From a virus (Duplodnaviria > Heunggongvirae > Uroviricota > Caudoviricetes): a DNA stretch of 64,000 nucleotides. The position numbers and the translations under genes are program-made. The stretch is from positions 1 to 64,000 of IMG/VR virus record IMGVR_UViG_3300037258_000549; one strand, written 5' to 3'. The notes below the pieces were generated by a model that searched no databases, was not told where the DNA came from, and was given only the letters and a program-made list of their open reading frames with translations. Of this stretch, positions 1-54,283 are shown piece after piece. Numbering within the stretch: the stretch's first letter is position 1; each line of letters starts with the position of its first letter.

Positions 1-1320
1 AGGGCAGGCGGGACTGGGACCGGGGCGGAAAGTCGGTGTGGAACGGGCTGGGCAGGGGCGGGTCGGCCAGGCAAGTCGGTGTGAGATGGGTTGATTGGAG
101 GCGATCAGGGCTGGCAAGTCGGTATGGTGCGGCCAGGAACGTGATGGGTCGAGACGTCGGTGTGGGTCGGGACGAAGCGGTACGGGGTGGGTAGTCGGCC
201 TGGGGCGGGTCGGCTGGGTCTGGGCGGGGCTGGATGGTGTAGTCGTACGGGCTGGCTCGGATTGGGCTGGGTAGGGCAGGTAAGTCGGGGTGGTGCGGAC
301 GGGAACGGAATGGTAAGTCGGCGCGGGCTGGTTCGGTGCGTGATGATCCGGGAAGTCGGTAGGGGCCGGGCGGGGTAGGGGCGGATCGGGGTGGCTTGTC
401 GGTATGGAACGGACGGGGCAGGTATGGCAAGTCAGTACGGGGCGGGGCGGACCGGGGTGGCTTGTCGGCAGCGGCCAGGCAGGGGCGTTTCGGCTCGTCG
501 GTGTGGGGTGGGTTGGGCTGGGTTGGGTGGTCGGGGCCGGTTGGCTTGTCGGCAGGAGGGGGCTGGTGTGGTGCGGCTTGTCGGCTCGGCGCGGACCTGG
601 GGTGACGTGGTTCGCTTGGGATGGCTCGGCTAGTCGGGCAGGTGGGGGTCGGACGGGGGTGGCGTGGCTCGTCGGGGAGGTGAGGCTTGCTGCGGGCCGG
701 GCTGGCGTGGCGAGTCACGGGTGCGGACGGGTTTGGGTTGGTAAGTCGGTGCGGGCAGGTGAGGCACGAGGTGGCCTGTCGGCTTGGCCTGGGGCGGCGC
801 GTGATGGACGGGCGTGTCGGCCTGGGCTGGAGTGTAATGGACTGGCGCGTCGGCGGGGGCCGGGTAGGGGTGGGTCGAGACGGTTCGTCGACGTGGGAAG
901 GAGTGAAGCGGTGTGGGCGGGACAGAGCTGGGTGGTCGGTGTGGCCTGGCGGGGGCTGAGGCGGGTTGGGCTGTGAAGGATAGTCGGTACGGTGCGGTTC
1001 GGGCTGGAGCGGGTTGTCGGTGTGGCCTGGCGGGGGCTGAGGCGGGTTGGGCTGTGAAGGGTAGTCGGTGCGGGCAGGTGAGGCACGGGGTGGCATGAGA
1101 AGTCGGTACGGTGCGGTTCGGAAAGGGAGGACAAGTCGGCGGGGGAGGGATCGGGCAGTCTCGGCTCGTCGGGGAGGGGTGAGCGGGCCGGGTTTGGCTG
1201 GTGATGACAAGTTGGTGCGGGCCGGATTTGGCTGGGGTGGGATGGCCGGATGCGTCGGGTAAGCCGGACAGGTGCTGGGATGTCGGCGCGGGGAGGGCCA
1301 GGAGAAGTCGATGAGGTTTG
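1..1320. repeat. Block B1 of degenerate RGTCGGYRCGG repeats (G-rich on + strand); runs off the left edge of the window
   Basis: Dozens of GTCGG(T/C)(A/G)CGG motifs separated by GGG-rich, A/T-poor spacers. No consistent reading frame. Confidence 0.8.
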
Positions 1321-1426
1321 TGTAGCCGCCCTGATGCGGCGTAGCGGTAGCACTAGACCGTATGATACCTTCTGCTCCAGCGACCGCAAATTAGCTGTAA
1401 GGCAACAGTTGCACCCTCTCCTGCGG

Positions 1427-1441
1427 TCTGTTACAGTATAG
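1427..1441 (+). promoter_or_regulatory. Promoter-like motif TCTGTTACAGTATAG (copy a), preceded by AACAGTT
   Basis: About 36 nt upstream of the 1463 ATG. The same 15-mer family recurs at 3910, 12410, 13805, 20364, 52889 and 54263. Confidence 0.4.
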
Positions 1442-1462
1442 AACGAGCCCAAGGAGGGGAGC

Positions 1463-2980: not shown

Positions 2981-3005
2981 GTTTAATCGCCGGGAATACC
3001 AAGCA

Positions 3006-3041
3006 GGCCGCGTCACCGGAATTCGGTGGCGCGGCCTTTTT
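3006..3041 (+). terminator. Rho-independent terminator
   Basis: GGCCGCGTCACCG-GAAT-TCGGTGGCGCGGCC, a 13-bp GC-rich stem, followed by TTTTT. Confidence 0.7.
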
Positions 3042-3840: not shown

Positions 3841-3909
3841 GGTTTGGTTTGGTTAGCCGTCACATTCAGGCGTCATTTTTAAAGTATCATGAACGCTGGC
3901 GTATTGGAG

Positions 3910-3924
3910 TCTCTTGCAGTATAG
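3910..3924 (+). promoter_or_regulatory. Promoter-like motif TCTCTTGCAGTATAG (copy b)
   Basis: Member of the conserved 15-mer family. Lies in an AT-richer spacer upstream of the 3972 gene. Confidence 0.4.
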
Positions 3925-3971
3925 TAAAGAGGTCCCCCGGATAACCAGGGGCACAACGACGGGAATCACCA

Positions 3972-5651: not shown

Positions 5652-6535
5652 CCATCCCGGTGGCAGTGCCTCGCGAGATCCCGGTGAACGGTAGAGTTAT
5701 CACGTTCCGCCGGGAGCAGATGCTGGGCTGGTCAGTGATTGCCGGGTTCGCCGGGGCCTGCCTCGCGGCCGGCGTGTACCTGCTGTGGCTAGAAGTTGAC
5801 TGGCATATTCATCTGGGCAGCTTCAACCACGGTTCCTCGTTGAAGCTGTGGTGGGATAACCTGTTCAGTTTCAAGAGCTGGGTGCTGTACCGGCACGGGC
5901 TGCGTGACCTGGGCGAGCCGGCCGCGGCGGTGATCGGCGTCAAGACACTGCTTACTAAACCGAGATGGTGGACGTTCCGGGCAAGCACCGGGCAGCTGCT
6001 GGCCATTACGGCACTGCTGGCGGTATCGGCGGTCGCGCTGATCGTCGGCGGCATGTGGCTGATCAACTTCGGGCTGCCGGACGCCTGGCACTGGGCATTC
6101 GGCTCGTACCGGGTCACCGGCCCCGGCTGGATTGCGCATTCATCCTGGGAGAACCTGGCACTCGGGCTGCTGGTCATCGGCCCGGTACTGCACTACATCT
6201 GGGCGCCGGCCGGCGCGACCTTGCAGGGCTACCAGATCGACGCGGCGGTCGACCGGACGCTGCGTACCGGGCACTTCCCGCTGTGGGTTGACTTCCCGGT
6301 GGTACCCCCGGTGATCCGTGAGCGGTACAGCTGGGACCTGGCCCGGCAGAAAGAGCGCATCCTGCGTGAGTCGCACGGGGTGATGCAGCCGGGTCAGCGC
6401 CGCCGCCGGACGAGCCGTAGCACCCGGGTCCTGGTAGCCGTCTTGGTTACCGTCGGCGTGCTCGTCACCGCGGTCGGCGTGATCGCTAAATTCTGGATTG
6501 CCACCCATCATGGTTTTTGGTACTTGACGCCATGA
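5648..6535 (+). CDS. Polytopic membrane protein
   Basis: ATGA overlap start. Several hydrophobic segments. Confidence 0.55.
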   Translation: MTIPVAVPREIPVNGRVITFRREQMLGWSVIAGFAGACLAAGVYLLWLEVDWHIHLGSFNHGSSLKLWWDNLFSFKSWVLYRHGLRDLGEPAAAVIGVKTLLTKPRWWTFRASTGQLLAITALLAVSAVALIVGGMWLINFGLPDAWHWAFGSYRVTGPGWIAHSSWENLALGLLVIGPVLHYIWAPAGATLQGYQIDAAVDRTLRTGHFPLWVDFPVVPPVIRERYSWDLARQKERILRESHGVMQPGQRRRRTSRSTRVLVAVLVTVGVLVTAVGVIAKFWIATHHGFWYLTP

Positions 6536-7649: not shown

Positions 7650-8473
7650 TGATCACTGCCAGTGTCATCGCGGCCTTGCTCGGCTTCGGCCTGTTCGCCT
7701 GGGGCGGGGTCAAGTCCGTTCCGGTGAAGAACATCGGCATCCCGCAGTCGTTCGGGGCTATCGGGAGCAGCGTGTACCAGCCGGGGGCACATGAGACCTG
7801 GACGCCGTGGATGTCGATCACCGATATCAACGAGACTATCCAGACTACTACCTTCGAGGACAAGGGGAATGACAACGGTACCTCGTGCAATGGCGGCCTC
7901 CCGGTGCGGATCGGTGGCCAGCAGACCGCTTGCGCGGACGTTACCATCCAGTGGCAGATCCGGCCGCAGGCGGCGGCGTCGCTGTTCAGTGACTACGCCA
8001 ACCAGGGCAATTTCATGGCGGAGATCACTAACGCGGTGGTCGTCCGGGAACTGAAGCAGGTGGTCAACAACGACCTGGGTGACTATAACCCGATTACTGA
8101 CGTGCAGGCCGTCACCAGCACTGGGACGCAGACCAGCCAGTTCACCACGCTCGGTCCGAAGATCCTCAGCGACATGAAGGCCGATATCGGCAACCGGGTG
8201 AACATCCTGACGCTGCTGCTCCCGCAGCTGCACTACGCGACGCCGCTAGAAAACAAGCTGTCCGGCATCCAGCAGTCTTACGCTGACTTCGCTGTCGCGC
8301 AGGAGAACGTCAAGGTGGCGCAGCAGGAGCAGCTGGCGCTGGTTGCGCTTAAGAACCCGTCGCTGAACCAGCTGATCGCGCAGTGCCTGGTGGACAGCAA
8401 GACGGATACCAATCTTCAGTGTATCCCGGGAGCGACAAGCAACCTGCAGCTGTCAGGAGGCGCTGCGAAGTAA
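7556..8473 (+). CDS. Membrane protein, possibly SPFH/band-7-like
   Basis: Two N-terminal TM helices followed by a ~250-aa soluble domain. Confidence 0.5.
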   Translation: MAQFIFAIIFWLAAVIAVLYGVFLAEGNRGLVITASVIAALLGFGLFAWGGVKSVPVKNIGIPQSFGAIGSSVYQPGAHETWTPWMSITDINETIQTTTFEDKGNDNGTSCNGGLPVRIGGQQTACADVTIQWQIRPQAAASLFSDYANQGNFMAEITNAVVVRELKQVVNNDLGDYNPITDVQAVTSTGTQTSQFTTLGPKILSDMKADIGNRVNILTLLLPQLHYATPLENKLSGIQQSYADFAVAQENVKVAQQEQLALVALKNPSLNQLIAQCLVDSKTDTNLQCIPGATSNLQLSGGAAK

Positions 8474-8487
8474 CCCGGGAAAAAGAC

Positions 8488-8517
8488 TTGACCGGGTGAG
8501 CAGTAAGCCGTTACGGT
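8488..8517 (+). promoter_or_regulatory. Candidate sigma-70-like promoter for the ncRNA array
   Basis: TTGACC, 18-nt spacer, TACGGT (TAnnnT class). Directly upstream of the first repeat unit. Confidence 0.3.
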
Positions 8518-8552
8518 TGGTCTTGCTTAAGAGAGGCCTCCGGTCGGGCAAC

Positions 8553-8719
8553 GGGCCGGAAGAGAATCGGTTATCCATGCGGAGGACGAGGTCGCGGGGT
8601 GCAACTCCTCGCCACCTGGGTTAATCTCAGGTGTAGCTCAGCACAGAGCGCGTAAACCCCGGTTTTCATACACATGCCCGTTGCTCGACCAGGCTGATTT
8701 TGATAACTACATAGCTGGC
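8553..8719 (+). ncRNA. Y-RNA-like module 1
   Basis: Conserved 23-mer, GGTGCAACTCC T-arm-like segment, GGTGTAGCTCAGCACAGAGCGC D-arm-like segment. Confidence 0.35.
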
Positions 8720-8885
8720 GGGCCGGACGAGAATCGGTTATCGCCTTACAAGCGAGTGGTTGCAGGTTCAAGTCCTGTCATCCGGGAGAAATTTTGGGTG
8801 TAGCTCAAATGGCAGAGCGCTTAAACCCGGTTTTCACTCACACGCCTGCCAGTCTTACGACAATTACATAGACTATATAGCAAAC
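8720..8885 (+). ncRNA. Y-RNA-like module 2
   Basis: Conserved 23-mer. T-arm GCAGG-TTCAAGT-CCTGT, then TCATCCGGG pairing with the CCGGACGA of the 23-mer as an acceptor-like stem. D-arm-like segment. Confidence 0.4.
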
Positions 8886-9042
8886 GGGCCGGACGAGAAT
8901 CGGTTACCCACATTTAATGGAGAAGGCGCGAGGGTGTAAGTCCCTCGCCACCTGGAGGTAGACGGGTGTAGCTCAGGACAGAGCGCTTAAACCCCGGTAC
9001 TCACTAACATGCCCGTCTGCTTAACAACTGCACAGCGCTAGC
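8886..9042 (+). ncRNA. Y-RNA-like module 3
   Basis: Conserved 23-mer. T-arm-like GAGGG-TGTAAGT-CCCTC. Hairpin GACGGGT...GCCCGTC enclosing the D-arm-like segment. Confidence 0.35.
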
Positions 9043-9461
9043 GGGCCGGAATCGGTCGGTTACCCTTCAAACAGCACACTCGGTCGGTGTACCCACGCCC
9101 GCTAGCCCATAATTACATAGGAAGCCTGGCGGGCCGGACGAGGATCGGTTATCGATGGTTCGACTCCACCTGCTGGTGTCACAGCTGGCAAAGCCCGATG
9201 GCGGGCACTGCTCTCGTTTAGACGGGAGTTTTCCCCGGTACTCAAGGACCCATGCCTGCCAGGCTTCACCGTAGTGTCGGCCTCTTCAATAAGTCCTTCG
9301 CACGGCGGAGTGCACCCAACCGGGAGGCCGATGGTTAAGGGGCACACGACGGCTCGCGGGCCGGATAACGGTCGGTTATCTCCCTTTCAACAGAGAACAC
9401 AACCCGGCAGTCGGTTACACGCCCGCGAGCCTTCTTTTACGCCACATCAGACAGGATCATC

Positions 9462-9809
9462 ATGAGTGACTGCACTCCCCGGCGGCGCTACGCCGAGCGG
9501 GAGGCGGCCGAGCAAGCTAAGGCTGCAGCTGTGGAGGCAGCCCGGTGGAAGGACCCGTTTACCCCGCTGGAACGATGGTTCTCCCGGCTGCCGAATACCT
9601 TTCTGGAAGAGAAGTGCCATTGCGGGTCGGGTAAGCCGCTCCTGTACTGGTCGCCGGAGGATGGCGACGGCTGCAAGGATTGCGCTGGGTCACTGCATGT
9701 ATATATTCCTGAAGCAGTGATGTACAACGTAATGGATAAGTTTGGTATTACCGGGGACGTCCGGGCGCAGGTTTATGCTCAGATCGAGAAGTCGCGAGAG
9801 GAGAGGTAG
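9462..9809 (+). CDS. Cys-rich hypothetical protein
   Basis: RBS and ATG. CHCGSG...CKDC motif. Confidence 0.5.
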   Translation: MSDCTPRRRYAEREAAEQAKAAAVEAARWKDPFTPLERWFSRLPNTFLEEKCHCGSGKPLLYWSPEDGDGCKDCAGSLHVYIPEAVMYNVMDKFGITGDVRAQVYAQIEKSREER

Positions 9810-9810
9810 C

Positions 9811-11481
9811 ATGAACGATCCGCTGAAGCAGGTCATCACCCGGGTTACTCCTCAGAGTGAGCAGGCCGATTCGCGTCAGGTTCTCAACAATGCGGGCGGC
9901 TACGGGTTCCAGGTCACCGGTGACGCGCGACTCCACCGATTTCTGACACTAGGCACTTCATCAGGCACTTACTACGTGCGCGAGCAGGACCTTACCAAGC
10001 AGAACGCTGCGGTCGTACTCGACTGGGCGAAGAACCGGCCGGGTGAGCTAGTGGAGAAGCTTACTGAGGTTTCCGTGCAGGGCCGGGCCCCGCGGAACAA
10101 TGCTGCGCTGTTCGCGCTGGCCGCCGCGGCGGGGCTGGGCAGCGAAAACGGCCGCAAGCAGGCACTGGGCGCGCTGCCGCTGGTGGCCCGCACCGGCACC
10201 CACCTGTACACCTGGGCCGGGTACTGCCAGCAATTTCGTGGCTGGGGGCGCGGGATGCGCCGTGCGGTCAGCGACTGGTACCTGGCCAAGGACGCCGACC
10301 AGCTCGCTTACCAGATGGTTAAATATCGTGCGCGGGACGGTTGGAAGCACGCGGACCTGCTGCGGCTTGCCCACCCCGGGTACGAGAAGGGCGGGTACGC
10401 TAGCGATGCCTCGCCCGCGCACCGGGCGCTGTTCAACTTCGCCTGCGGGCGTCCGGCGGGAGATAACCTGCCGCCACTGGCCGCGGCCTACCTGGAAGCA
10501 CTTGGTATCGACCGCAGCACGGCCGGGGCTAAAGCGAAGGGCGCCGCGTACGTGCGGTTGATCGCGCAGAACCCGGGACTACCCTGGGAGGCGCTGCCGG
10601 ACGGTGCGCTGACCCAGCCGGACGTGTGGGCGGAGCTGATCCGGCACGGCCTGCCGCAGACGGCACTGCTGCGTCAGCTGCCCCGGCTGACCACCCTCGG
10701 CGTGCTGACCCAGCTGGGCGTGATCACTGACCTGGTAACCGCGCAGCTGGCTGACACCAATCGGCTGCGCAAGGCCCGGGTACACCCGATTGCCGTACTA
10801 CTTGCGGCGAAGACTTATGCGTCTGGTCACGCGGTGCGCGGTGACGGCCACTGGGCGCCGGTGCCGAAGGTAACCGATGCGCTCGATGCTGCGTTCTATG
10901 CTGCGTACGGTGCGATTGAGCCAGCGAACAAGCGGACAATGGTAGCGCTGGACGTGTCCGGGTCGATGGGTGCCGCGGTCGGCGGGCTGCCACTCACCTG
11001 CCGGGAAGCTTCGACGGCGCTGGCCCTGGTCACCGCTGCGACTGAATCGCAGGTGCTGATTACCGGGTTCACTGCGGGTAGCAGACCGTCCCGGTGGGGA
11101 GCTAGTTACGGTACGGCAATTAGTCTGCTGAACATCAGCCCGCGGCAGCGGCTCGACGACGCGGTCAGCGCGATCTCCGGCCTGCCGTTCGGCGGCACCG
11201 ACTGCTCACTGCCGATGCTGTGGGCGATGCAGAACAAGGTCGAAGTCGATACTTTCGAAATCATTACGGATAATGAGACGTGGGCGGGGGATATCCATCC
11301 GCATCAGGCGCTGGAGCAGTACCGGCAGCAGACTGGTATCCCGGCTCGGCTCGCTGTCGCGGCAATGACCAGCACGGACTTTACCATCGCCGATCCGGAC
11401 GACCCGGGCAGCCTAGATATTTCCGGACTCGATGCCGCGGTGCCGACGCTGCTAAGCGATTTTTCTCGGGGCAGTATCTGA
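9811..11481 (+). CDS. rsr: Ro60/Rsr-like ribonucleoprotein (TROVE-like N-terminal domain plus C-terminal vWA domain)
   Basis: RBS GAGGAGAGG then ATG. ~555 aa. C-terminal MIDAS motif DVSGSM and a downstream TDC/GGTD element. The size and TROVE+vWA architecture match bacterial Rsr. Adjacent to the Y-RNA-like array. Confidence 0.6.
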   Translation: MNDPLKQVITRVTPQSEQADSRQVLNNAGGYGFQVTGDARLHRFLTLGTSSGTYYVREQDLTKQNAAVVLDWAKNRPGELVEKLTEVSVQGRAPRNNAALFALAAAAGLGSENGRKQALGALPLVARTGTHLYTWAGYCQQFRGWGRGMRRAVSDWYLAKDADQLAYQMVKYRARDGWKHADLLRLAHPGYEKGGYASDASPAHRALFNFACGRPAGDNLPPLAAAYLEALGIDRSTAGAKAKGAAYVRLIAQNPGLPWEALPDGALTQPDVWAELIRHGLPQTALLRQLPRLTTLGVLTQLGVITDLVTAQLADTNRLRKARVHPIAVLLAAKTYASGHAVRGDGHWAPVPKVTDALDAAFYAAYGAIEPANKRTMVALDVSGSMGAAVGGLPLTCREASTALALVTAATESQVLITGFTAGSRPSRWGASYGTAISLLNISPRQRLDDAVSAISGLPFGGTDCSLPMLWAMQNKVEVDTFEIITDNETWAGDIHPHQALEQYRQQTGIPARLAVAAMTSTDFTIADPDDPGSLDISGLDAAVPTLLSDFSRGSI

Positions 11482-11947: not shown

Positions 11948-12016
11948 GGATGAGCGCCTTTTCTTGCTAGGTGCCTTGTGCGGTGTACTGGAACGGCGTC
12001 TGAGCGGGGATTAGCG

Positions 12017-12241
12017 ATGGACGTGCGTGCAGCGCTGGCCCGTGATTACCACCGGGCGGCGGCCCGGCAGGTCGAACTGGCCCGCCGGGACCGTCGGCAG
12101 CGCGACCGGCTAGTCCGGGAGCTGCGTGAGGAGGACTCCGCTAGCTGGACCTACGAGGCGCTCGCGACGGCGGTGGGTTGCTCTCCCGAGTTGATCGCTT
12201 TTATTTGCAAGAACGAGTCGGCGCCAGAGAAAGGGAGCTGA
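12017..12241 (+). CDS. Small helix-turn-helix DNA-binding protein
   Basis: In-frame ATG with an RBS. C-terminal HTH-like WTYEALATAVGCSPELI. Confidence 0.45.
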   Translation: MDVRAALARDYHRAAARQVELARRDRRQRDRLVRELREEDSASWTYEALATAVGCSPELIAFICKNESAPEKGS

Positions 12242-12360: not shown

Positions 12361-12409
12361 TAACGCAGGCGTGGTCAGTTCAGGTGTTAGTTAGCTAACA
12401 GTTCAGCTG

Positions 12410-12424
12410 TCTGTTATAGTATCG
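12410..12424 (+). promoter_or_regulatory. Promoter-like motif TCTGTTATAGTATCG (copy c, free-standing), preceded by the palindrome GTTAGCTAAC and AACAGTT
   Basis: 27 nt upstream of the 12451 ATG. Closest match to copy a, including the upstream AACAGTT. Confidence 0.45.
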
Positions 12425-12450
12425 AGGGTAGTCAACCAGGAGGAGAAATC

Positions 12451-13269
12451 ATGAAGATCATCCGGGAAGAAACCCCGACCGGCGGCCCCAACCGGACTCC
12501 GCGACAGGAAATCGTCGCACTGAACACCGGCATGCGGGAGGTCGAGCCGGAAGGGTACCTGGACTTCTCTGAGTCGGAGGGCTGGCCCTGGGACAGCGAT
12601 GGCACCAAGAACACCTGGGACATCCAGATCGAGGCCGTCCGCTACTTCATCGTCCCGTTCGAGGGCTTGGATAGCCAGGCGGCAGCCGAGCAGGCAGGCG
12701 GGGACGATGACCACGGCGGGGTTTACTTCTACCCGTTCTCTAACATGTTCCTGCCTATCGGCGAGGGCGACGACGACGGTGACCTGAACACGGCCAATTT
12801 CGATGAGAAGCTGGCCGGGTTCCTGCACAAGTACGGCAAGAACGGCAAGCCGCAAGGCGGCACTGAGATCATGGCGGCGATCCGGGCCGGCGACCAGCAC
12901 TTCCTGGGCGAATTCGGTCCGGGCGGGGAAAACGAGAAGCCGCGTGACCAGCGGCCAGTTCGCGCCCGTGTTGTGTTCACCGACGGCATTCTCAACGACG
13001 CCGCCCGGTTCCGCAGCTACCTGGAGCAGGGCACCCGCAGCAAGGACGGCTACGGCAGTCACGGTGAGTGGGATGAAGTCTGGGCTGTCTGTATTTTGGG
13101 CGAAGGCCGCAAGTCAGACGGCAGCAACCCGGCGAAAGACGCGTATGACCAGTACGTGACCCTGGCCAAGGACCACCCGTGGATCCACACCTATTTGTTC
13201 GAAACGGTGACGAACCCAGCTGAGGTAGCTGAGGATATGGCCCTCGCGGTGGCGCCCACCCAGGGCTGA
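12451..13269 (+). CDS. Hypothetical acidic protein
   Basis: RBS AGGAGGAG then ATG. 272 aa. Confidence 0.6.
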   Translation: MKIIREETPTGGPNRTPRQEIVALNTGMREVEPEGYLDFSESEGWPWDSDGTKNTWDIQIEAVRYFIVPFEGLDSQAAAEQAGGDDDHGGVYFYPFSNMFLPIGEGDDDGDLNTANFDEKLAGFLHKYGKNGKPQGGTEIMAAIRAGDQHFLGEFGPGGENEKPRDQRPVRARVVFTDGILNDAARFRSYLEQGTRSKDGYGSHGEWDEVWAVCILGEGRKSDGSNPAKDAYDQYVTLAKDHPWIHTYLFETVTNPAEVAEDMALAVAPTQG

Positions 13270-13274: not shown

Positions 13275-13805
13275 AAGCGGGAAGTCCGGTCGCATTAGGC
13301 GTGCGGCCGGGCTTTCGGCTTGTCTAGGCTTGGGATGTCGGCACGGGAAGGGAGGGGTAGAGGCGGGTGGGGATGGCCAGTCGGCGCGGGACGGAGGGGT
13401 GTGGGATGAGTCGGATCGTCGGTACGAGGCGGGCGGGCGTGGGCCGTGTCGTCGTCAGGGTGCGGGCAGGCTCGGGCGGGCCAGTCGGGGTGATTCGGGC
13501 CGGACTGGCGTGGCTTGTCGAAGTGGCTCGGCCTGGTGCGAGACGGGCCGGGTAGTCGGCGCGGGAGGTGACGGGAGGAGACGGGAGGGTGGGAGAAGTC
13601 GGTACGGGGTAGGGAAGGACTGAGCTGGGTCGGCGTGACCAGTCGGGGTGGAGAGGGATGGCCCGGTACGTGATGGACTGTCGGCTTGACTTGGTCAGGG
13701 TCGGCGTGGGGGGATTCGTCGGTACGGATCGGAGCAGGCCGGGGTGTAGGGGCAGACTGGTCAATGTGGAAAGGCTAGGTCCGGGTAGCCACCCTGGTGT
13801 GGCGT
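13275..13805. repeat. Block B3 of RGTCGGYRCGG repeats (G-rich on + strand), with the conserved boundary TAGCCACCCTGGTGTGGCGTG at its right end
   Basis: At least 13 GTCGG motifs. The right boundary is the reverse complement of the ACGCCACACGAGGGTGGCTA leader of the inverted blocks C1/C2. Confidence 0.8.
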
Positions 13806-13819
13806 GCTTAGAGTATAGC
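13805..13819 (+). promoter_or_regulatory. Motif TGCTTAGAGTATAGC (copy d) at the end of block B3
   Basis: Member of the 15-mer family. Immediately followed by a - strand gene. Confidence 0.35.
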
Positions 13820-13833
13820 GGAGCGCGAAGCTA

Positions 13834-14592
13834 TTACCGGATGCTCGACAGCTGTTTTCGCACTTGAAGTCCGAGAAATGAAGTCATGTACGGTGGCAGT
13901 GCTTCGGCGATATCTTCCCGGTTGCTCATCCAGGTAATATCCATCGCCTCGCGGACTGGTTCTTTTCGTTCGTGCCCGCCGACGCTGACGTACATGCCTG
14001 GCTGCCAGTGGCCTGCCCTTGCTGCAGCGACAGGGTGACTCCAGCCACATTCCCGGTTTCGCTTGACGGCCTCTAGTTGCACGGGCGCGGTGAGGGTGAG
14101 ACCGTTCCCGGGTTCGAACAGCCGGTGCCGGTAGACCGGCCGGTTAAACATTTGCCCGCACAAGGTAGTGGGATCGCGTAGCCAGGGTCGAGCACCGGAT
14201 ACGTTTTCGATGATGTACGGCACTCCGGCAGGTAGCAGCAGCTCGCGTACCGGGTCAATGAGCGCTGGATAGGAGTCAGCCAGCCCGGGACGGCACCGGC
14301 TAAGCTGAGAATATGCTTGACATGGCGGGCTAACGTGGACAAAGTCAAAGTGCCGTATGAACGACCGGTCGGCGAGCACGTCCAGGATGTCAGCGCAGAT
14401 GAACTGCTCGGCGCCGGAGGACAGGTAGTCGGTTTCTAGTCGTGCGTTATTGTCCACGCCCCAGACGGCGAACCCGGCGTCCCGGTACCCGCGGGCCGCG
14501 CCGCCCGCGCCTGAGCAACCGTCAAGTACGGTCGGCGGGGATGACGAGGGCGGCCGGGACCCACTCCATCTGCTCATGCAGGGTCTGCACAT
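13834..14592 (-). CDS. C5-cytosine DNA methyltransferase
   Basis: Motif I (LDGCSGAGG), motif IV (HVSPPCQ) and motif VI (ENV). The start may be the internal Met (MSRW). Confidence 0.7.
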   Translation of the reverse strand: MCRPCMSRWSGSRPPSSSPPTVLDGCSGAGGAARGYRDAGFAVWGVDNNARLETDYLSSGAEQFICADILDVLADRSFIRHFDFVHVSPPCQAYSQLSRCRPGLADSYPALIDPVRELLLPAGVPYIIENVSGARPWLRDPTTLCGQMFNRPVYRHRLFEPGNGLTLTAPVQLEAVKRNRECGWSHPVAAARAGHWQPGMYVSVGGHERKEPVREAMDITWMSNREDIAEALPPYMTSFLGLQVRKQLSSIR

Positions 14593-16925: not shown

Positions 16926-17585
16926 GTGGAAATACGGCATTTCTATCACCTGTACCTCGACGGTGATGCGCCCTGGCGGGTGATCGCCGATGAGTACGCG
17001 GACGTCTTGCGGCTCGCGGGATTCCCGGTTGACCCGGTGGTGGGCCTGGTCGGTAAAGACCGCGGGGACGCGCGGTTGTGGGCAGCGGGCCGCCGGTGGG
17101 TAGTCGGTGCGGAAGCGGACACCGGGTTTGAGCAGGTAACCCTGGCCGTGCTGCAGGACCAGCTAGGGCAGCTGCCCGACGATACGGCGGTGCTGTACAC
17201 GCACAGTAAGGGGGCGATGCGGAACATGATCGCCGAGGACCAGTGGCGCCGGTCGATGCTCTGGCACCTGGTGTTCGGCTGGCAGCGGTGCGTGGAACTC
17301 CTGCAAGGGCACGATGTAGTGGGTTGTCACTGGCGGCATGGTAATCACTTCGCAGGGAACTTCTGGTGGGCGCGGGCGCGGTTCCTGCGAACCCTGCCGC
17401 TGGTGGATGCGGCGGAAGCTGACCGGTACTCCGCTGAGCTGTGGCTTGGCAGCGGGCGCCCGGGGCGGGTGGCCAACCTGGTGGAGGGCTTCCCTCCGGA
17501 CGGAACACGGGACGGGGCCATCTTGCTGTCAGAGCGGCTGCCGCGGAAATTTACCCGGCAGCGGCATATCTGGCCGCGCGGGTAA
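16926..17585 (+). CDS. Hypothetical protein, paralog of the 36768 gene
   Basis: GTG start. Shared motifs with the paralog: RH(F/Y)YH(L/I)Y-DG, Y(T/A)H(S/T)KGA, HD-VGCHW, AGNFWWA. The ORF track extends it upstream through the C-rich block (16755), which I consider unlikely. Confidence 0.5.
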   Translation: MEIRHFYHLYLDGDAPWRVIADEYADVLRLAGFPVDPVVGLVGKDRGDARLWAAGRRWVVGAEADTGFEQVTLAVLQDQLGQLPDDTAVLYTHSKGAMRNMIAEDQWRRSMLWHLVFGWQRCVELLQGHDVVGCHWRHGNHFAGNFWWARARFLRTLPLVDAAEADRYSAELWLGSGRPGRVANLVEGFPPDGTRDGAILLSERLPRKFTRQRHIWPRG

Positions 17586-17652
17586 TACTCTAGTAAGGAA
17601 AGCGCCCGGCCCCGCACGGGGAGCGGCTCAGCATCAAGTACATCGAGTTCTC

Positions 17653-19338
17653 GTGACCGCTGCTGAGTATCGTCTTCACGCTGTACCCGACGTTTTCCTG
17701 CCGGATGGCTCGGTGCTGCACGACTCACTTGTCGGCAGCCAGCGGCCCCGGTTCTGGACGGCCCCGCCGCGGCACCGGGATAAGCAGCCCGGGTGCACGT
17801 CCTGCGCGAAAGACGGCTATCGAGCGGGCTGCGGCGATTACGCAGCTGAGGAGCTGCTCGACTGGTGCCCGTCTTACGGGTACGAGCTGGACTCGTGGCA
17901 GCAGTGGTGGCTGAGCGAGGCGTGCGGGGTGCGCCCGGATGGCCGGTGGGCTGCATTCGAGTGCGCAAACGTAGCGTCCCGGCAGAATGGAAAAAACGTT
18001 CTACTGGAGGTTCGCGAGCTAGGCGGACTGTTCGTGTTCGGCGAGTCGATGATTATTCATACCGCCCATGAGTTCAAGGCGGCGGCCGAGCATTTCCGCC
18101 GGGTACGGGACACCATCACCGCTTACGATGACTTGTCGCGCCGGGTAAAGCGGATCATGACCAGCCACGGTGACGAGGCTATCGAGCTGCGCCCGGCACC
18201 CACGTTGATCTTCGGCGCCGGGGGCAAGCGGGTGCGCCGCAATATCGGTGGCCGACTGCGCTTCCTGGCCCGCTCCCGCGGCTCTGGGCGCTCGTTTACC
18301 GCTGACCTTGTTGTTTACGACGAGTCGATGTTCTTGTCGGATGAGCAGGTGGGCGCGTCTATGCCGACCATGTCCGCGGTGGCTAACCCGCAGATGATTT
18401 ACACGGCGTCAGCCGGCTACCACGACTCGGTGCAGCTGGCCATGGTGCGCCGTCGGATGCTGCGGCATGACCAGTCGCTGATGGGCGCGGAGTGGAGCAT
18501 CGACCCGCATACTGACCTGTGCCCCCGCGATGAGGTTCTCGGCCGGAAAACTAACCGGTACGTCATCTGCGACCGGCACGACGACCGCGATGACCCGCGC
18601 TCGTGGGCGAAGGCTAACCCGGCGTTCGGCACCCGGATCTCCTATGAGCACGTGCAGAAAGAGTTCAAGTCCATGTCGGCTGCCGCGTTCGACCGGGAGC
18701 GGCTGGGCGTCGGGGACTGGCCCGAGGAGGAGGAAAGCTGGACAGTCATCTCCGAGGAAAGCTGGGAGCGGTGCGCGCTGCCTGACCCGGGCGGCGCCGT
18801 GCGCCCGCTGGCCTTTGCCGTAGACGTGGACCCGCAAATGCGCTACTCCACCATTTCGGCGGCGTGGCAGCGGCCTGAGCTAGTCGGCGGGCCGCCGCGT
18901 ACCGTGCTGGAAATTCCACGCGGCTGCTCGAAAGAGGGGACCGGCTGGGTTATCCAGCGGCTGGTGGAGCTGCGGAGGCAATGGCGCCCGATCGCAGTGT
19001 GCTTCCCCAAGAACGGCCCCGCGGCTGGACTCGCTGACCAGGCTGAAAATGCCGGGCTAGAGGTCGTGCGTGCGAGCAGCGGGGATGAAGCTGAGGCGTT
19101 TTCACAGATGATTACCGCAATTAAAAGCAGGACGATCATCCACCTGGGTAAAGAGCAAGCCCCCGCACTCTGGAGCGCTATCGCCAGCGCAGAAACTAGG
19201 GTGGTGGGAGACGGCGGGCAGGCCTGGTCACGGAAGGATTCCGAAAGCGATATCACGCCTATCGTTGCGGCGACCCTGGCTAACTGGGCGCTGGGAAAGA
19301 AGCGCAGAAATTATGACCCCCGGAAATCCGTAGGTTAG
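17653..19338 (+). CDS. Terminase large subunit
   Basis: Conserved terminase ATPase/nuclease architecture (...LVVYDESMF..., ...IYTASAGYHD...). The N-terminal ~100 codons of the ORF look non-coding, so the start is placed at the in-frame GTG at 17653 (uncertain). Confidence 0.75.
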   Translation: MTAAEYRLHAVPDVFLPDGSVLHDSLVGSQRPRFWTAPPRHRDKQPGCTSCAKDGYRAGCGDYAAEELLDWCPSYGYELDSWQQWWLSEACGVRPDGRWAAFECANVASRQNGKNVLLEVRELGGLFVFGESMIIHTAHEFKAAAEHFRRVRDTITAYDDLSRRVKRIMTSHGDEAIELRPAPTLIFGAGGKRVRRNIGGRLRFLARSRGSGRSFTADLVVYDESMFLSDEQVGASMPTMSAVANPQMIYTASAGYHDSVQLAMVRRRMLRHDQSLMGAEWSIDPHTDLCPRDEVLGRKTNRYVICDRHDDRDDPRSWAKANPAFGTRISYEHVQKEFKSMSAAAFDRERLGVGDWPEEEESWTVISEESWERCALPDPGGAVRPLAFAVDVDPQMRYSTISAAWQRPELVGGPPRTVLEIPRGCSKEGTGWVIQRLVELRRQWRPIAVCFPKNGPAAGLADQAENAGLEVVRASSGDEAEAFSQMITAIKSRTIIHLGKEQAPALWSAIASAETRVVGDGGQAWSRKDSESDITPIVAATLANWALGKKRRNYDPRKSVG

Positions 19339-19342
19339 GGGG

Positions 19343-19905
19343 TATAATCGAGTCTGACGCCACACGAGGGTGGCTAGGCAAACCATCCCGGTACTGACGG
19401 GTCATTCCAGATCACCCCCACCCGGACCACCCCGACGTACCCGCCCTCCTCCGGCCCCATCTACTCCGCGCCCTACCGCGCCGACTTCTCACGCCTGCGC
19501 ATCCCAGCCCCGGCCCGTCCGACAAGCCACGCCTGATCAAGCCAACCCATGCCGACGTACCAGGCCTGTCCCAGCCAATCCGTCCCGGCCGACGTCCCAT
19601 CTCGGCCCTTGCCCAGCCATCCCTCGCCGACCAGCCCGGTCACGCCTGTCCTTGCCACACCCGGTCGACGTTCCATACCAGGCCGTTCCACTCCGACTGG
19701 CCATCCCGAGTCCAGCCGCCCCAAGTCACGCCGACAGCTCACAGCACGCCGTTCCCAGCCAGTCCGCACCGACGAACCAGGCCAGTCCCCCTCCTCCCGT
19801 CCCGGGCCGACGGTCCCTCCCAGTTCTTTCCGGTCCCTCCCATTCCTGCCCGACAAGCCACCCCATCCCACGTCCTCCCACCCCAGCTGACGGGCCACTT
19901 CACGA
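19343..19905 (+). repeat. Block C2: inverted (C-rich) copy of the repeat element, with perfect TATAAT and leader ACGCCACACGAGGGTGGCTAGGCAAACC
   Basis: GGGGGTATAATCGAGTCTG then the leader, then a ~530-bp CCGAC-rich tract. Lies just after the terminase stop. Confidence 0.7.
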
Positions 19906-20065
19906 CAGGAGCCGACGAACGAGCAGGAATAAGCTGTTGCTGGCGGGCATCGTGGTGTTCCTGGTTTTCGTTTTCCAGGACCCGGTGGGTACCGCGCACG
20001 CGCTGTCAACGGCCTGGCACCGCATCGTGGTGTTCATTGACAACGTGTGACACTAAGCTGGCGTC

Positions 20066-20362
20066 ATGGCTACTACGTCACCGCCGGTCACCCGGGCGGA
20101 TATCCCGGCCATCACCGATGACGTCCTGGCACGCGCCCGCTCGGTACGGCCTTCTCGTGTCCTGCTCACGGTGCTGGGAGCGATCGGCACGGTGCTCGGC
20201 TGGGTGCCCGGCCGGGCGTTTGTTGCCATTGGCTGGCTGGCCGGGCGCAGTTTCCTGATCGGCGCATTCTTCGTCGAGGCGGTCATTTACGGGTTCCGTC
20301 AAGGCGCGATGCTCGGGCCGAGGCAGCCAGAACAGCCGCCTAAGCCGCCAGAGTCTCGTTAA
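20066..20362 (+). CDS. Small membrane protein
   Basis: ATG start. Two hydrophobic helices. Confidence 0.45.
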   Translation: MATTSPPVTRADIPAITDDVLARARSVRPSRVLLTVLGAIGTVLGWVPGRAFVAIGWLAGRSFLIGAFFVEAVIYGFRQGAMLGPRQPEQPPKPPESR

Positions 20363-20363
20363 G

Positions 20364-20378
20364 TCTGCTGCAGTATCG
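20364..20378 (+). promoter_or_regulatory. Motif TCTGCTGCAGTATCG (copy e, free-standing), directly after the 20362 stop
   Basis: Member of the 15-mer family. The next downstream feature is a - strand HNH gene. Confidence 0.35.
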
Positions 20379-20539
20379 AATAATCCGCTGCTATGTGCGA
20401 AATCTGTTCAATGCGCGTACGCTAGGCGAGAATAGCTTTTTGCCCGCGGCCAGCGTAGGAGCCGGGCTCCGTTGCAAGCGGAGGGTTCCGGCGTCCGTTG
20501 AGTCAGGTTGGGGTAGGCACAGGCGCGCTAGTCGGCGTG

Positions 20540-29766: not shown

Positions 29767-29830
29767 GTGAGCGATATCGCTGACGGGCGATAACGGTGCT
29801 TACTCGAAAAAGCCTGCTAAAGTCTAGGGT

Positions 29831-52414: not shown

Positions 52415-52890
52415 GGTTCGGGATGGCTGGTCGGTGCGGGCCGGGTAGTCGGTACGGGATGGGCCGGCGCGGGAGGGGTTGAACTGGCCAGTCGGTGGGG
52501 GTCGGGATGGCTGGTCGGTGCGGTCCGGGGGCGGGGCGGGATGGCTGGTCGAGGAGGAGCGGGCAGGAGTGAACTGGGCGGGTATGAGCTGTCGGTGCGG
52601 CTCGGCTCAGAGGGTCTGGTGGGGGTAGTCGGTCCGAGATGGGCAGGGTGGGGGCGGGTAGTCGGCGCGGGAGGGATGGACTGGGCCTGGCCTGTCGGTC
52701 CGGGACGGTTGGGGCTGGCAAGGTAAGTCGGTTCGCAACGGGCCGGGTGGGGGCGGGTAGTCGGCGCGGTCCGGAGCGGGCTGGCCTGGCATGTCGGCGC
52801 GGGAGGGATGGACTGGGGATGAGTTGTCGGTCCGTTATGGCAGGCCGTCAGAAGCGGGAAGGCCGGTATATCCGCCCTGGTTACGGAGTC
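52415..52890. repeat. Block B4 of RGTCGGYRCGG repeats with boundary CCGCCCTGGTTACGGAGTC
   Basis: Starts 1 nt after the 52414 stop. G-rich. Ends in the conserved boundary. Confidence 0.8.
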
Positions 52891-52903
52891 CTCTGGAGTA
52901 TAG
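52889..52903 (+). promoter_or_regulatory. Motif TCCTCTGGAGTATAG (copy f)
   Basis: Member of the 15-mer family. Confidence 0.35.
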
Positions 52904-52999
52904 CAAGATCGGGCGTATGCTGGAGGTGCAGCCTGCGGCCAACAATGAAGCCGGGCTAACCGGAGGAGCCGGGCATGCCTTGAACTAAGGCTGCCCTGG

Positions 53000-53975: not shown

Positions 53976-54264
53976 GAATTACTGGGCTGGCGCGACGGGA
54001 TGGCTGGTCGCCTGGGATGGGCCGGAGCGAGGCGGGTCGACTGGGGTCGTCGGCGCGGGAGGGAAGGGTTCGGGTAGCCGAGGGCCGGGACGTCGGCGCG
54101 GGCTGGGTGGAGATGGCGCGGGATGGCACGTCGTTTGGGATGGACCGGGGCGGGGCGGGCCGACTGGGGTAGTCGGTGCGGGCGGGTTAGGCGTGTGCAG
54201 TCGGTGCGGGTCCGGGGCGGGATGGGTTGGGTTGGGTAGTCGTATCCGCCCTGGTTACGGAGTC
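53976..54264. repeat. Block B5 of RGTCGGYRCGG repeats with boundary CCGCCCTGGTTACGGAGTC
   Basis: G-rich GTCGG tract. The boundary is nearly identical to that of B4. Confidence 0.8.
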
Positions 54265-54277
54265 TCCTGCAGTATAC
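54263..54277 (+). promoter_or_regulatory. Motif TCTCCTGCAGTATAC (copy g), 7 nt upstream of the 54284 ATG
   Basis: If TATACC acts as a -10 box, the transcript would be leaderless or near-leaderless. Confidence 0.35.
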
Positions 54278-54283
54278 CCTTAG

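What the first reader, a model, noticed from the sequence alone, without database searches (positions are those of the whole stretch)
12361..12424. Conserved promoter-like 15-mer TCTGYTRCAGTATAG (seven copies), also found free-standing
- **Copies.** 1427 (TCTGTTACAGTATAG), 3910, 12410 (TCTGTTATAGTATCG), 13805, 20364, 52889 and 54263, plus a degenerate copy near 57063.
- Five copies terminate G-rich repeat blocks. The copies at 12410 and 20364 stand alone.
- Copies a and c share an upstream AACAGTT. Copy c is preceded by the perfect palindrome GTTAGCTAAC, an operator-like feature.
- Downstream spacing to start codons varies from 7 nt (54263 to ATG 54284, which implies a leaderless mRNA if TATACC is the -10 box) to 36-50 nt with normal RBSs.
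- On the + strand the hexamer is T(A/G)NAGT (weak). On the opposite strand it reads TATACT or TATAAT-like (stronger), so the directionality is ambiguous.
Basis: seen in the sequence. Interest (0 to 1): 0.65.

Follow-up and report, generated by a model that had tools for sequence, protein, structure and literature searches.

The report
Conserved phage promoter core without -35
A 17-20 base sequence repeated about nine times in this uncultured soil phage is most likely a rightward-firing promoter core kept across related phages; it is a useful annotation rather than a surprise, but in this lineage it is oddly tied to long G-rich repeat arrays.

Summary
The motif is real. Five copies match the 15-mer with at most 2 mismatches, against 0.15 expected by chance. 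All seven reported copies exist (13805 is really 13804). The "degenerate copy" at 57063 is not convincing.

The full element is gAGTCTgtTAnAGTATaG, and there is no conserved -35. A matrix trained only on the window copies finds 13 strong hits in about 1.15 Mb of related phage DNA. All 13 lie on the gene-sense strand; none are antisense or in null sequence. Upstream of orthologues of the 12451 gene, the motif is the only conserved island.

In five cases TAnAGT sits 6-7 nt before the ATG of a long ORF with no room for a ribosome-binding site. These include window 29810 to ATG 29831 and an epimerase whose N-terminal Rossmann motif fixes the start. That fits leaderless mRNAs, so the -10 is 15-mer positions 6-11 and transcription runs rightward.

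The best reading is an actinobacterial sigma-A-type, -35-less promoter with a family-specific AGTCT box one helical turn upstream. No transcription data exist. The palindrome and AACAGTT are not conserved. Block-linked copies also carry a symmetric -10 (TATACT on the other strand), and three face convergent genes. Their role is not fully explained.

The parts
1424..1443 (+). Motif copy CGGTCTGTTACAGTATAGAA at the end of G-rich block 1. TTGCAC lies 17 nt upstream of TACAGT. ATG 1463 has an AAGGAGG ribosome-binding site.
3907..3926 (+). Motif copy GAGTCTCTTGCAGTATAGTA at the end of block 2. It is the only promoter candidate between the terminator at 3005-3037 and the gene starting at 3972.
12407..12426 (+). 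Stand-alone copy CTGTCTGTTATAGTATCGAG (the reported finding). It lies 26 nt before ATG 12451, which has an AGGAGGA ribosome-binding site. It is conserved at the orthologous site in L212, L004 and L006.
12390..12399 (.). Palindrome GTTAGCTAAC. It is not conserved in the orthologue L212.
13801..13820 (+). Copy GGCGTGCTTAGAGTATAGCG at the end of block 3. It points into the 3' end of the minus-strand C5-methylase gene 13834-14592.
19341..19360 (-). Decayed inverted copy (minus strand GCGTCAGACTCGATTATACC; plus strand reads GGTATAATCGAGTCTGACGC). It sits at the end of the inverted block 19379-19909, directly after the terminase stop codon.
20361..20380 (+). Stand-alone copy AAGTCTGCTGCAGTATCGAA, with an extra AGTCT box 10 nt upstream at 20352. 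It precedes a conserved leader (ATGTGCGAAA...). Orthologous copies occur in L010, L031 and L008.
29810..29829 (+). Newly found copy AAGCCTGCTAAAGTCTAGGG. TAAAGT is followed by 7 nt and then ATG 29831 (231 aa, GC3 0.74), with no room for a ribosome-binding site, which implies a leaderless start.
52886..52905 (+). Copy GAGTCCTCTGGAGTATAGCA at the end of block 4. The next gene starts at ATG 53000.
54260..54279 (+). Copy GAGTCTCCTGCAGTATACCC at the end of block 5, upstream of gene 54284/54296-55231. An orthologous copy occurs in L090.
59579..59598 (-). Newly found minus-strand copy AAGTCTCTCCAAGTATAGTA, upstream of minus-strand ORF 59519-59217 and the tRNA at 59035-58961.
57063..57077 (+). Only its position is analogous; the sequence match is not convincing.
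1..1340 (+). G-rich, C-poor repeat block 1, cut by the window edge. Further blocks lie at about 3038-3860, 13320-13780, 52415-52860, 53975-54240 and 56759-57045, with an inverted block at 19379-19909. GTCGG boxes are spaced 5k+3 nt apart (13, 18, ... 33, 38, 43, 48).
3005..3037 (+). Intrinsic terminator with a 15-bp stem and a TTTTT tail, lying between gene 2258-2980 and block 2.
13280..13316 (+). 16-bp terminator-like hairpin between gene 12451-13269 and block 3. An equivalent hairpin is present in L212.

Best explanation
The element is the core of a family-specific promoter that fires rightward, in the sense of the genes. Its consensus is gAGTCTgtTAnAGTATaG. It is most likely read by the host's primary-sigma RNA polymerase.

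**Proposed anatomy.**
- The -10 hexamer is T(A/g)nAGT, at 15-mer positions 6-11.
- Where position 2 of that hexamer is G, the overlapping nAGTAT two bases downstream supplies the A-N3-T pattern.
- Transcription would start about 7 nt after the hexamer.
- There is no -35 element.
- A conserved AGTCT box lies at about -19 to -15, one helical turn upstream of the AGT of the -10. This box is the family-specific part. It may be read by RNA polymerase itself or by an unidentified phage or host factor.

**What is shown.** The motif is non-random, restricted to intergenic gaps, co-oriented with genes, conserved at orthologous sites amid diverged flanks, and placed at a fixed 6-7 nt from leaderless start codons.

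**What is inferred.** That RNA polymerase initiates there, which sigma factor is used, and what the AGTCT box does.
For: **1. Not chance.** There are 5 matches with at most 2 mismatches, against 0.15 expected.

**2. Independent validation in relatives.** A matrix built only from the 8 window copies was scanned over about 1.15 Mb of related loci.
- At 16 bits or more: 13 hits on the gene-sense strand, 0 antisense, 0 in reversed or complemented null sequence.
- At 14 bits or more: 15 sense, 0 antisense, 1 in the nulls.

**3. Orthologous footprint.** Upstream of orthologues of the 12451 gene (window, L212, L004, L006), the only conserved island in the intergenic region is GTCTGTTAnnGTAT (alignment A1). 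The 20364 site is matched in L010, L031 and L008, in each case followed by the same conserved leader. The 54263 site is matched in L090.

**4. Leaderless geometry.** TAnAGT is followed by 6-7 nt and then the ATG of long ORFs with GC3 of 0.74-0.91.
- L004 8003.
- L014 15034, L017 13734 and L009 12651. These are NAD-epimerases that begin MRxLVTGGAGF, so the start codon cannot lie further upstream.
- Window 29810 to ATG 29831.

**5. Information content.** Across 30 aligned sites, information is confined to positions 1-17 of the 20-mer. The best-conserved positions are T at -12 and T at -7. Nothing is conserved near -35.

**6. Host background.**
- The capsid gene has relatives in Micromonosporaceae, Jiangellaceae, Kribbellaceae and Nocardioides assemblies, among others.
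- The terminase is closest to those of Rhodococcus and Arthrobacter phages.
- In Mycolicibacterium smegmatis, 79% of promoters have ANNNT at the -10, there is no -35 consensus, and 24% of transcripts are leaderless (PMC6448022).

**7. Genomic logic.** Copy 3910 is the only promoter candidate after the strong terminator at 3005-3037. The single minus-strand copy precedes minus-strand genes.
Against: - No transcription start data exist for this uncultured phage.
- In 5 of the 9 window copies the main hexamer has G or C at the critical second position (TGCAGT three times, TGGAGT, CCAAGT). These would have to use the overlapping nAGTAT, which means a 2-nt shift of register within one conserved motif.
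- A conserved AGTCT box at -19 to -15 is not a known sigma-A promoter element, so a different reader is possible.
- Three block-linked copies point into the 3' end of a convergent gene and serve no downstream gene:
  - window 13804, facing the methylase;
  - the inverted copy after the terminase in the window, L008, L009 and L010;
  - L245, between two convergent HNH endonuclease genes.
- In L090 the predicted start site would cut into the GAGGAG ribosome-binding site of the downstream gene.
- More distant relatives have other promoters at the equivalent place, for example TTGCAT-17-TAGGCT in L003.
Confidence: 0.6

Rival explanations
1. The block-linked copies are bidirectional, or mainly leftward, promoters. 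On the opposite strand AGTATAG reads TATACT. This would fire into the adjacent block and make a C-rich, G-poor RNA. Such an RNA could be a Rho-binding decoy, or simply a transcript that Rho terminates quickly. The G-rich blocks would then be functionally paired with the motif.
For: - In nAGTATA the A and T that define the rightward -10 base-pair with the T and A of a leftward TATACT. This is the symmetric geometry reported for divergent bacterial promoters (bioRxiv 10.1101/2020.01.31.928960).
- Almost all block-linked copies keep AGTATAG or AGTATAC (TATACT on the other strand; L245 has AGTATAA, TATACT likewise), whereas the stand-alone copies 12410 and 20364 and their orthologues have AGTATCG or AGTATTA.
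- At the inverted block after the terminase, the gene-sense strand reads a perfect TATAAT in the window and L010, and TATACT in L008.
- Three block-linked copies have no downstream gene to serve.
Against: - In the L004/L006 lineage the leftward hexamer is TATACC or CATACC, with no T at -7, yet the motif is conserved.
- For six of the seven window blocks, the leftward RNA would be antisense to every neighbouring gene.
- The small hairpins next to these copies, which would form a 5' stem-loop on that RNA, fold no better than shuffled sequence, with z-scores from -0.9 to +1.2.
- This reading cannot explain the stand-alone or the leaderless copies.
Confidence: 0.2
2. The motif is mainly the binding site of a phage-encoded DNA-binding protein: an asymmetric operator used many times across the genome, like the 'stoperators' of Cluster A mycobacteriophages. 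On this reading its resemblance to a -10 is secondary.
For: - The site is asymmetric, repeated about 9 times in 64 kb, intergenic and co-oriented with transcription. These are also properties of stoperators (my own knowledge of mycobacteriophage L5).
- The element is built from direct repeats of RAGTM one helical turn apart. Examples are GAGTCtgctaGAGTC in L014, and AGTCT-AGTCT-AGTAT at 20352-20376. This layout suits tandem protein binding.
- A weak, sub-threshold helix-turn-helix protein is encoded at 11978-12241, just upstream of copy c.
Against: - The fixed 6-7 nt distance to leaderless ATGs is what a promoter needs, not what an operator needs.
- Pfam and PHROG scans of about 100 window proteins found no repressor, integrase or confident DNA-binding protein.
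- The best-conserved bases are the T at -12 and T at -7 positions of a -10 hexamer.
Confidence: 0.12
3. The motif is the promoter for a phage-encoded RNA polymerase or sigma factor, encoded outside the 64-kb window. The whole 17-20 bp element would then be read as one unit, as with T7/SP6-type promoters.
For: - The conserved stretch is about 17-20 bp and ends in TATAG. Copy a (TTACAGTATAGAA) resembles the SP6 promoter core GACACTATAGAA (comparison from memory only).
- Conservation persists even where the sigma-A rule (A at -11) is broken.
- Related contigs are 100-210 kb long, so much of the genome is unseen.
- Canonical TTGAC-N17/18-TACGGT promoters also exist, at 8488 and 38965. Two promoter classes could correspond to two polymerase forms.
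Against: - No RNA polymerase, sigma factor or WhiB domain was found in about 100 window proteins.
- With a T7-like start at the G of TATAG, the leaderless genes would carry an odd 3-nt leader. The sigma-type -10 puts the start exactly on the ATG.
- The epimerase-type copies lack TATAG altogether (GAGTCTGCTAGAGTCTCTTC) but keep TAGAGT.
Confidence: 0.06
4. The motif is only the decaying terminal part of a repeat or mobile cassette (G-rich block plus end sequence) and has no function of its own.
For: - Five of the original seven copies end blocks.
- The block plus motif occurs in either orientation, and in L245 it lies between homing-endonuclease genes.
Against: - The motif occurs without any block in L004, L005, L006, L014, L017 and L031, at window 12410, 20364, 29810 and 59598, and at the L212 orthologue of 12410, which has no block upstream.
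- It is kept at orthologous sites while the flanks diverge.
- It shows strict strand bias in relatives.
Confidence: 0.02

Closest known systems
Actinobacterial SigA '-10 only' promoters with leaderless mRNAs (Mycobacterium, Streptomyces; PMC6448022)
   Same: - A TANNNT/ANNNT hexamer with no conserved -35.
- The start codon lies 6-7 nt after the hexamer, with no ribosome-binding site.
- A partial TGn extension, since TCTGTTA is common.
- A likely actinobacterial host.
   Different: - A further conserved AGTCT box at about -19 to -15, and conserved AT(A/C)G after the hexamer, give a 17-20 bp consensus. That is far more constrained than host promoters.
- Several copies break the A-at-11 rule in the main register.
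Phage-specific promoter classes that dispense with the -35 element (T4 late promoters; the extended -10 middle/late promoters of Thermus phage P23-45) - from my own knowledge
   Same: A short, highly conserved, phage-wide consensus centred on the -10 region, with no -35, reused in front of many operons.
   Different: Those classes depend on identified phage proteins (gp55/gp33; gp39/gp76). No such factor was found here, and the upstream AGTCT box has no counterpart in them.
Symmetric bidirectional bacterial promoters (Warman et al., bioRxiv 10.1101/2020.01.31.928960)
   Same: In the block-linked copies, nAGTATA carries two -10 hexamers on opposite strands, and positions 2 and 6 of one base-pair with positions 6 and 2 of the other.
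   Different: The symmetry is absent from the stand-alone copies and from the L004/L006 lineage. Divergent transcription has not been demonstrated.
Stoperators of Cluster A mycobacteriophages (L5 gp71 sites) - from my own knowledge
   Same: An asymmetric 13-20 bp site, repeated many times, intergenic, oriented with transcription, and overlapping a promoter element.
   Different: No repressor or integrase was found. The sites lie at a fixed promoter distance from leaderless start codons. There are far fewer copies per genome length.
T7/SP6-type single-subunit RNA polymerase promoters
   Same: The length (about 17-20 bp) and the ...ACAGTATAGAA end of copy a resemble the SP6 sequence ...ACACTATAGAA.
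   Different: No such polymerase gene is present in the window. The epimerase-type copies lack TATAG. The leaderless spacing fits a sigma-type -10 instead.

Membership tests
Sigma-A-type -10 promoter (actinobacterial, -35-less) | An ANNNT or TANNNT hexamer about 6-8 nt upstream of the transcription start | tested here: met
   Every copy has at least one ANNNT in register: TAnAGT at 15-mer positions 6-11, or nAGTAT at positions 8-13. T at -12 carries 1.7 bits and T at -7 carries 2.0 bits across 30 sites. The rule is taken from PMC6448022.
Sigma-A-type -10 promoter (actinobacterial, -35-less) | A mapped transcription start at the predicted position | not testable with these tools
   No RNA data are available for this uncultured phage.
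Sigma-A-type -10 promoter (actinobacterial, -35-less) | Intergenic location, upstream of and co-oriented with genes | tested here: met
   All 9 window copies are intergenic, and 8 of the 9 face a co-directional gene. In relatives there are 13 sense hits and 0 antisense hits at 16 bits or more. The exceptions are 13804, the inverted copy at 19341-19360 and L245.
Leaderless mRNA promoter | The start codon coincides with the predicted start site (6-7 nt after the -10) and has no Shine-Dalgarno sequence | tested here: met
Five sites meet this: L004 8003, L014 15034, L017 13734, L009 12651 and window 29810. The epimerase N-terminus fixes the start codon.
Canonical -35/-10 sigma-70 promoter | A TTGACA-like hexamer 16-18 nt upstream of the -10 | tested here: not met
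   Only copy 1427 has TTGCAC at 17 nt. There is no information content around -35 in 30 aligned sites. The consensus scan does not call any of the copies.
Symmetric bidirectional promoter | Opposite-strand -10 hexamers whose positions 2 and 6 base-pair | tested here: met
   This holds for the block-linked copies (nAGTATA paired with TATACT). It does not hold in the L004/L006 lineage.
Symmetric bidirectional promoter | Divergent transcription starts about 18 bp apart | not testable with these tools
   No RNA data are available.
Stoperator / repeated asymmetric operator | A cognate phage repressor, in a temperate phage | tested here: inconclusive
   No repressor or integrase domain was found in about 100 window proteins. 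There is only a sub-threshold helix-turn-helix match at 11978-12241. The genome is incomplete.
T7/SP6-type phage RNA polymerase promoter | A phage-encoded single-subunit RNA polymerase | tested here: inconclusive
   None was found in the window, but related contigs are 100-210 kb, so the gene could lie outside it.
T7/SP6-type phage RNA polymerase promoter | An invariant TATA just before a fixed start site in all copies | tested here: not met
   The epimerase-type copies (GAGTCTGCTAGAGTCTCTTC, AAGTCTGATAAAGTCGGGTT) and window 29810 lack it.

The most novel reading that the evidence does not exclude
The 17-20 bp element is not read by plain host holoenzyme. Instead a so-far unidentified factor, encoded by the phage or appropriated from the host, recognises the two RAGTM boxes one helical turn apart. 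In the window lineage this promoter is also mechanistically coupled to the 0.25-1.3 kb G-rich pentamer arrays. These could be one-way Rho traps or insulators for anything transcribed leftward from the symmetric -10 or from convergent genes. Alternatively they could be genes for C-rich Rho-decoy RNAs.
Probability: 0.15. Interest if true: 0.7.

Novelty: new member of a known kind. Interest (0 to 1): 0.42.

Why it matters
- The motif gives a testable transcription map for a large, uncultured family of soil actinophages whose contigs run from 60 to 210 kb. It predicts operon starts, start codons and leaderless genes.
- It shows that the family reuses one tightly constrained, -35-less promoter core in front of structural, sugar-modification and unknown genes.
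- The conserved AGTCT box is a handle for finding whatever reads it.
- The physical link between this promoter and the long G-rich arrays is the unusual part. The arrays make up about 6% of the window. They sit after terminators and before promoters, and sometimes between convergent genes.
- If the arrays prove to be directional Rho-dependent insulators or decoys, that would be a new phage strategy. This is not shown here.

Tried and rejected
- **Near-identical DNA in cultured phages.** No match was found.
- **Exact-pattern scan of IMG/VR with GAGTCTNNTNNAGTATAG.** It returned 113 single hits. Nearly all are chance matches in unrelated, mostly lower-GC contigs. Only L151, from the same contig as L090, is a relative.
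- **Scan with the hairpin sequence GCCRCCCTSGTGYGGCG.** It returned 51 hits. Only L245, L260 and L270 belong to this lineage.
- **Look-up of the window's own contig.** Only a 2.3-kb Logan contig was found, so the window could not be extended. The 1463 protein has no relatives in IMG/VR.
- **Hairpin just upstream of the block-linked copies.** Four stem variants keep pairing: GCCAC/GTGGC, GCCGC/GCGGC, GCTG/CAGC and TCCG/CGGA. Folding energies are no better than shuffled sequence on either strand, so I do not build on it.
- **ECF-sigma reading (GTC as a -10).** No GGAAC-like box lies 16-17 nt upstream, so I rejected it.
- **SigF/SigB reading (GGGTAT).** No GTTT box lies at the required distance, so I rejected it.
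- **Rfam.** No family covers the motif or the blocks.
- **Skew 'blocks' in L003, L007, L219 and L221.** These are coding regions with GC skew, not the same repeat arrays.
- **Literature searches.** Searches for G-rich intergenic arrays or this consensus in actinophages found nothing relevant.

Full report
**Context**

The window is 63% G+C phage DNA, with genes mostly on the + strand.
- It encodes a large terminase (17338-19338), a portal protein (21241-24219) and a major capsid protein (25421-26683).
- It has no close DNA match among cultured phages.
- The terminase is about 35% identical to those of Rhodococcus and Arthrobacter phages.
- Capsid relatives occur in hundreds of soil viral contigs of 60-210 kb.
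- Capsid relatives also occur in assemblies of Micromonosporaceae, Jiangellaceae, Kribbellaceae and Nocardioides, among others.

An actinobacterial host is therefore likely.

**Observation**

The 15-mer is clearly non-random. It gives 5 matches with at most 2 mismatches against 0.15 expected, and 7 matches with at most 3 mismatches against 2.0 expected. All seven listed copies exist. The 13805 copy is in register at 13804. The copy at 57063 shares only its position at the end of a block.

Aligning the copies with their flanks extends the motif leftward to a 20-mer, (G/A)AGTCTnnT(A/G)nAGTAT(A/C)G.

A position weight matrix found three further sites:
- 29810-29829 on the + strand.
- 59598-59579 on the - strand, upstream of minus-strand genes and a tRNA.
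- A decayed inverted copy at 19341-19360. It lies at the end of a block that is inverted (C-rich on the + strand) directly after the terminase stop codon.

**Conservation in related phages**

Relatives were fetched through the 12451 protein, the capsid protein and the 54284 protein.

*Orthologous sites.*
- The intergenic region upstream of 12451 orthologues is unalignable except for one island, GTCTGTTAnnGTAT. This holds for the window, L212 (74% protein identity), L004 and L006.
- The palindrome GTTAGCTAAC and the AACAGTT heptamer are not kept in L212. In the window AACAGTT is out of register between copies a and c.
- The 20364 copy has orthologous copies in L010, L031 and L008. Each is followed 18-28 nt later by the same conserved leader, ATGTGCGAAA...GTACGCT...CCCGCGGCC.
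- The 54263 copy has an orthologous copy in L090.

*Blind test.* A matrix trained only on the eight window copies was scanned over about 1.15 Mb of related loci.
- At 16 bits or more it scores 13 sites on the gene-sense strand, none on the antisense strand and none in reversed or complemented null sequence.
- At 14 bits or more the counts are 15, 0 and 1.

*Independence from the blocks.* L004, L005, L006, L014, L017 and L031 carry the motif but have no G-rich blocks. In L212 the orthologue of the stand-alone 12410 copy is kept with no block upstream, although L212 does carry a block downstream of the gene.

**Direction and anatomy**

Several copies sit directly in front of a start codon, with no room for a ribosome-binding site:

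| Site | -10 hexamer | Spacer | Downstream ORF |
|---|---|---|---|
| L004 8003 | TATAGT | 6 nt | 171 aa |
| L014 15034 | TAGAGT | 7 nt | NAD-epimerase |
| L017 13734 | TAGAGT | 6 nt | NAD-epimerase |
| L009 12651 | TAAAGT | 7 nt | NAD-epimerase |
| window 29810 | TAAAGT | 7 nt | 231 aa, from ATG 29831 |

- The three epimerases begin M(R/K)xLVTGGAGF. This N-terminal Rossmann motif means the start codon cannot lie further upstream.
- This is the standard geometry of leaderless actinobacterial transcripts. In M. smegmatis, 79% of promoters have ANNNT at the -10, there is no -35 consensus, and 24% of transcripts are leaderless (PMC6448022).
- The geometry fixes the -10 hexamer at 15-mer positions 6-11 and sets transcription rightward.
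- Across 30 aligned sites, information content is confined to 20-mer positions 1-17. The peaks are T at -12 (1.7 bits) and T at -7 (2.0 bits). Nothing is conserved near -35.
- Only copy 1427 has a plausible -35 (TTGCAC at 17 nt).
- The unexpected part is the conserved AGTCT box at about -19 to -15, one helical turn upstream of the AGT of the -10. Some sites read as direct repeats, such as GAGTCtgctaGAGTC, and 20352-20376 carries three such boxes 10 nt apart.
- The phage also has ordinary promoters: TTGACC-18-TACGGT at 8488 in front of a Y-RNA-like array, and TTGACG-17-TACGGT at 38965. The AGTCT type is therefore a distinct class.
- Pfam and PHROG scans of about 100 window proteins found no sigma factor, RNA polymerase or WhiB. 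The only DNA-binding hint is a sub-threshold helix-turn-helix match at 11978-12241.

**What does not fit neatly**

*The hexamer rule.* In five of the nine window copies the main hexamer has G or C at its second position (TGCAGT three times, TGGAGT, CCAAGT). In these copies only the overlapping nAGTAT, two bases downstream, satisfies A-N3-T.

*Symmetry.* In the block-linked copies, nAGTATA is symmetric. The same A and T pair with a leftward TATACT. This is the arrangement described for divergent bacterial promoters. The stand-alone copies have AGTATCG instead.

*Copies with no gene to serve.* Three block-linked copies point into the 3' end of a convergent gene:
- 13804 faces the minus-strand C5-methylase.
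- The inverted copy lies after the terminase, conserved in L008, L009 and L010. There the gene-sense strand reads TATAAT or TATACT.
- L245 lies between two convergent HNH endonuclease genes.

For block-linked copies, 'promoter of the next gene' is therefore not the whole story. A leftward or bidirectional role, or a role of the block-plus-motif module as an insulator, remains open.

*The hairpin.* An apparent small hairpin lies just upstream of these copies. It keeps pairing through four stem variants but folds no better than shuffled sequence, so I give it little weight.

**The G-rich blocks**

The blocks are 0.25 to more than 1.3 kb long, strongly G-rich and C-poor. They are non-coding by GC3 and by ORF structure. 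They are built on a pentamer register, with GTCGG boxes spaced 5k+3 nt apart. Two of them are preceded by strong terminator hairpins, at 3005-3037 and 13280-16. Their function is unknown. Transcribed leftward they would give ideal C-rich Rho substrates, but this is inference only.

**Verdict**

The promoter interpretation is supported in the rightward direction by comparative evidence and by leaderless geometry. The operator-like palindrome and AACAGTT are not supported.

This is a new member of a familiar kind, a phage-family promoter consensus. It has two unusual features worth experimental follow-up: the AGTCT upstream box and the coupling to G-rich arrays. Nothing here is based on transcription data, so confidence in the mechanism is moderate (0.6).

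Noticed in passing
window 1-1340, 3038-3860, 13320-13780, 19379-19909 (inverted), 52415-52860, 53975-54240, 56759-57045; also L008 4994-5320, L010 3809-4474, L212 1361-1497, L245: Long non-coding arrays that are G-rich and C-poor (GC skew of 0.45 or more). They are built on a pentamer register, with GTCGG boxes spaced 5k+3 nt apart (33, 38 and 43 are the commonest spacings). They make up about 6% of the window. One array is inverted directly after the terminase gene in four relatives, and one lies between convergent HNH endonuclease genes in L245. Their function is unknown. The C-rich complement would be an ideal Rho substrate.
   Followed up: partly
window 8470-9440 and 9742-11481: The window encodes a Ro60/TROVE protein (Pfam E-values 6e-58 and 6e-38). 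Upstream of it lies an array of about five repeated modules (GGGCCGGA..ATCGGTTA ... tRNA-like arm) that look like Y RNAs. One of them scores as a tRNA in Rfam (8723-8786). The array is preceded by a canonical TTGACC-18-TACGGT promoter at 8488.
   Followed up: partly
window 20381-20500; L008 about 5670-5760, L010 about 4745-4830, L031 about 1030-1110: A conserved untranslated leader lies downstream of the 20364 promoter copy (ATGTGCGAAA ... GTACGCT ... CCCGCGGCCAGC..GGAGCC), in front of the portal-upstream gene. It could be a cis-regulatory RNA. It has no Rfam match at the gathering threshold.
   Followed up: no
window 57799-58200 (-), 58961-59035 (-), 60038-60110 (-): A translation-related cluster lies on the minus strand. 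It comprises an RF-1-domain (ArfB-like) protein, a tRNA with anticodon CTA (amber-reading; ARAGORN calls it tRNA-Pyl) and a tRNA-Ile (GAT).
   Followed up: no
window 21241-24219: The portal ORF is unusually long at 992 aa. The portal matches are split between residues 1-224 and 775-860. The intervening region gives a weak thymidylate-synthase PHROG match (447-571), which may indicate an insertion or a fusion.
   Followed up: no
window 46681-52414: Two very G+C-rich ORFs (up to 73% G+C), of 1178 and 731 aa, are built from 66-, 72- and 126-nt in-frame repeats. Neither has a family match. From their position they are probably tail-fibre-like or surface proteins.
   Followed up: no
window 29831-46100: A sugar- or small-molecule-modification cluster lies inside the late region. 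Pfam hits among these ORFs include an epimerase, GDP-mannose dehydratase, glycosyltransferases, an NTP-transferase, methyltransferases and a mannose-6-P isomerase/cupin. In relatives the epimerase is expressed from a leaderless copy of the motif.
   Followed up: partly
L014 14997-15056; L017 13711-13756: Tandem motif copies lie 37 nt and 23 nt apart in front of the epimerase gene in two relatives. In L014 the first copy is followed by a short ATG-initiated mini-ORF.
   Followed up: no
window 57467-57781: A 104-aa protein has a clear potassium-channel pore domain (Ion_trans_2, E = 7e-11).
   Followed up: no
window 1343-1360 and 3873-3890: Decayed extra motif-like copies (TAGCGGTAGCACTAGACC; TCATTTTTAAAGTATCAT) lie 40-80 nt upstream of the intact copies 1427 and 3910. 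Each follows its own GCC..GGC hairpin-like sequence. This suggests that the block ends have been duplicated.
   Followed up: no
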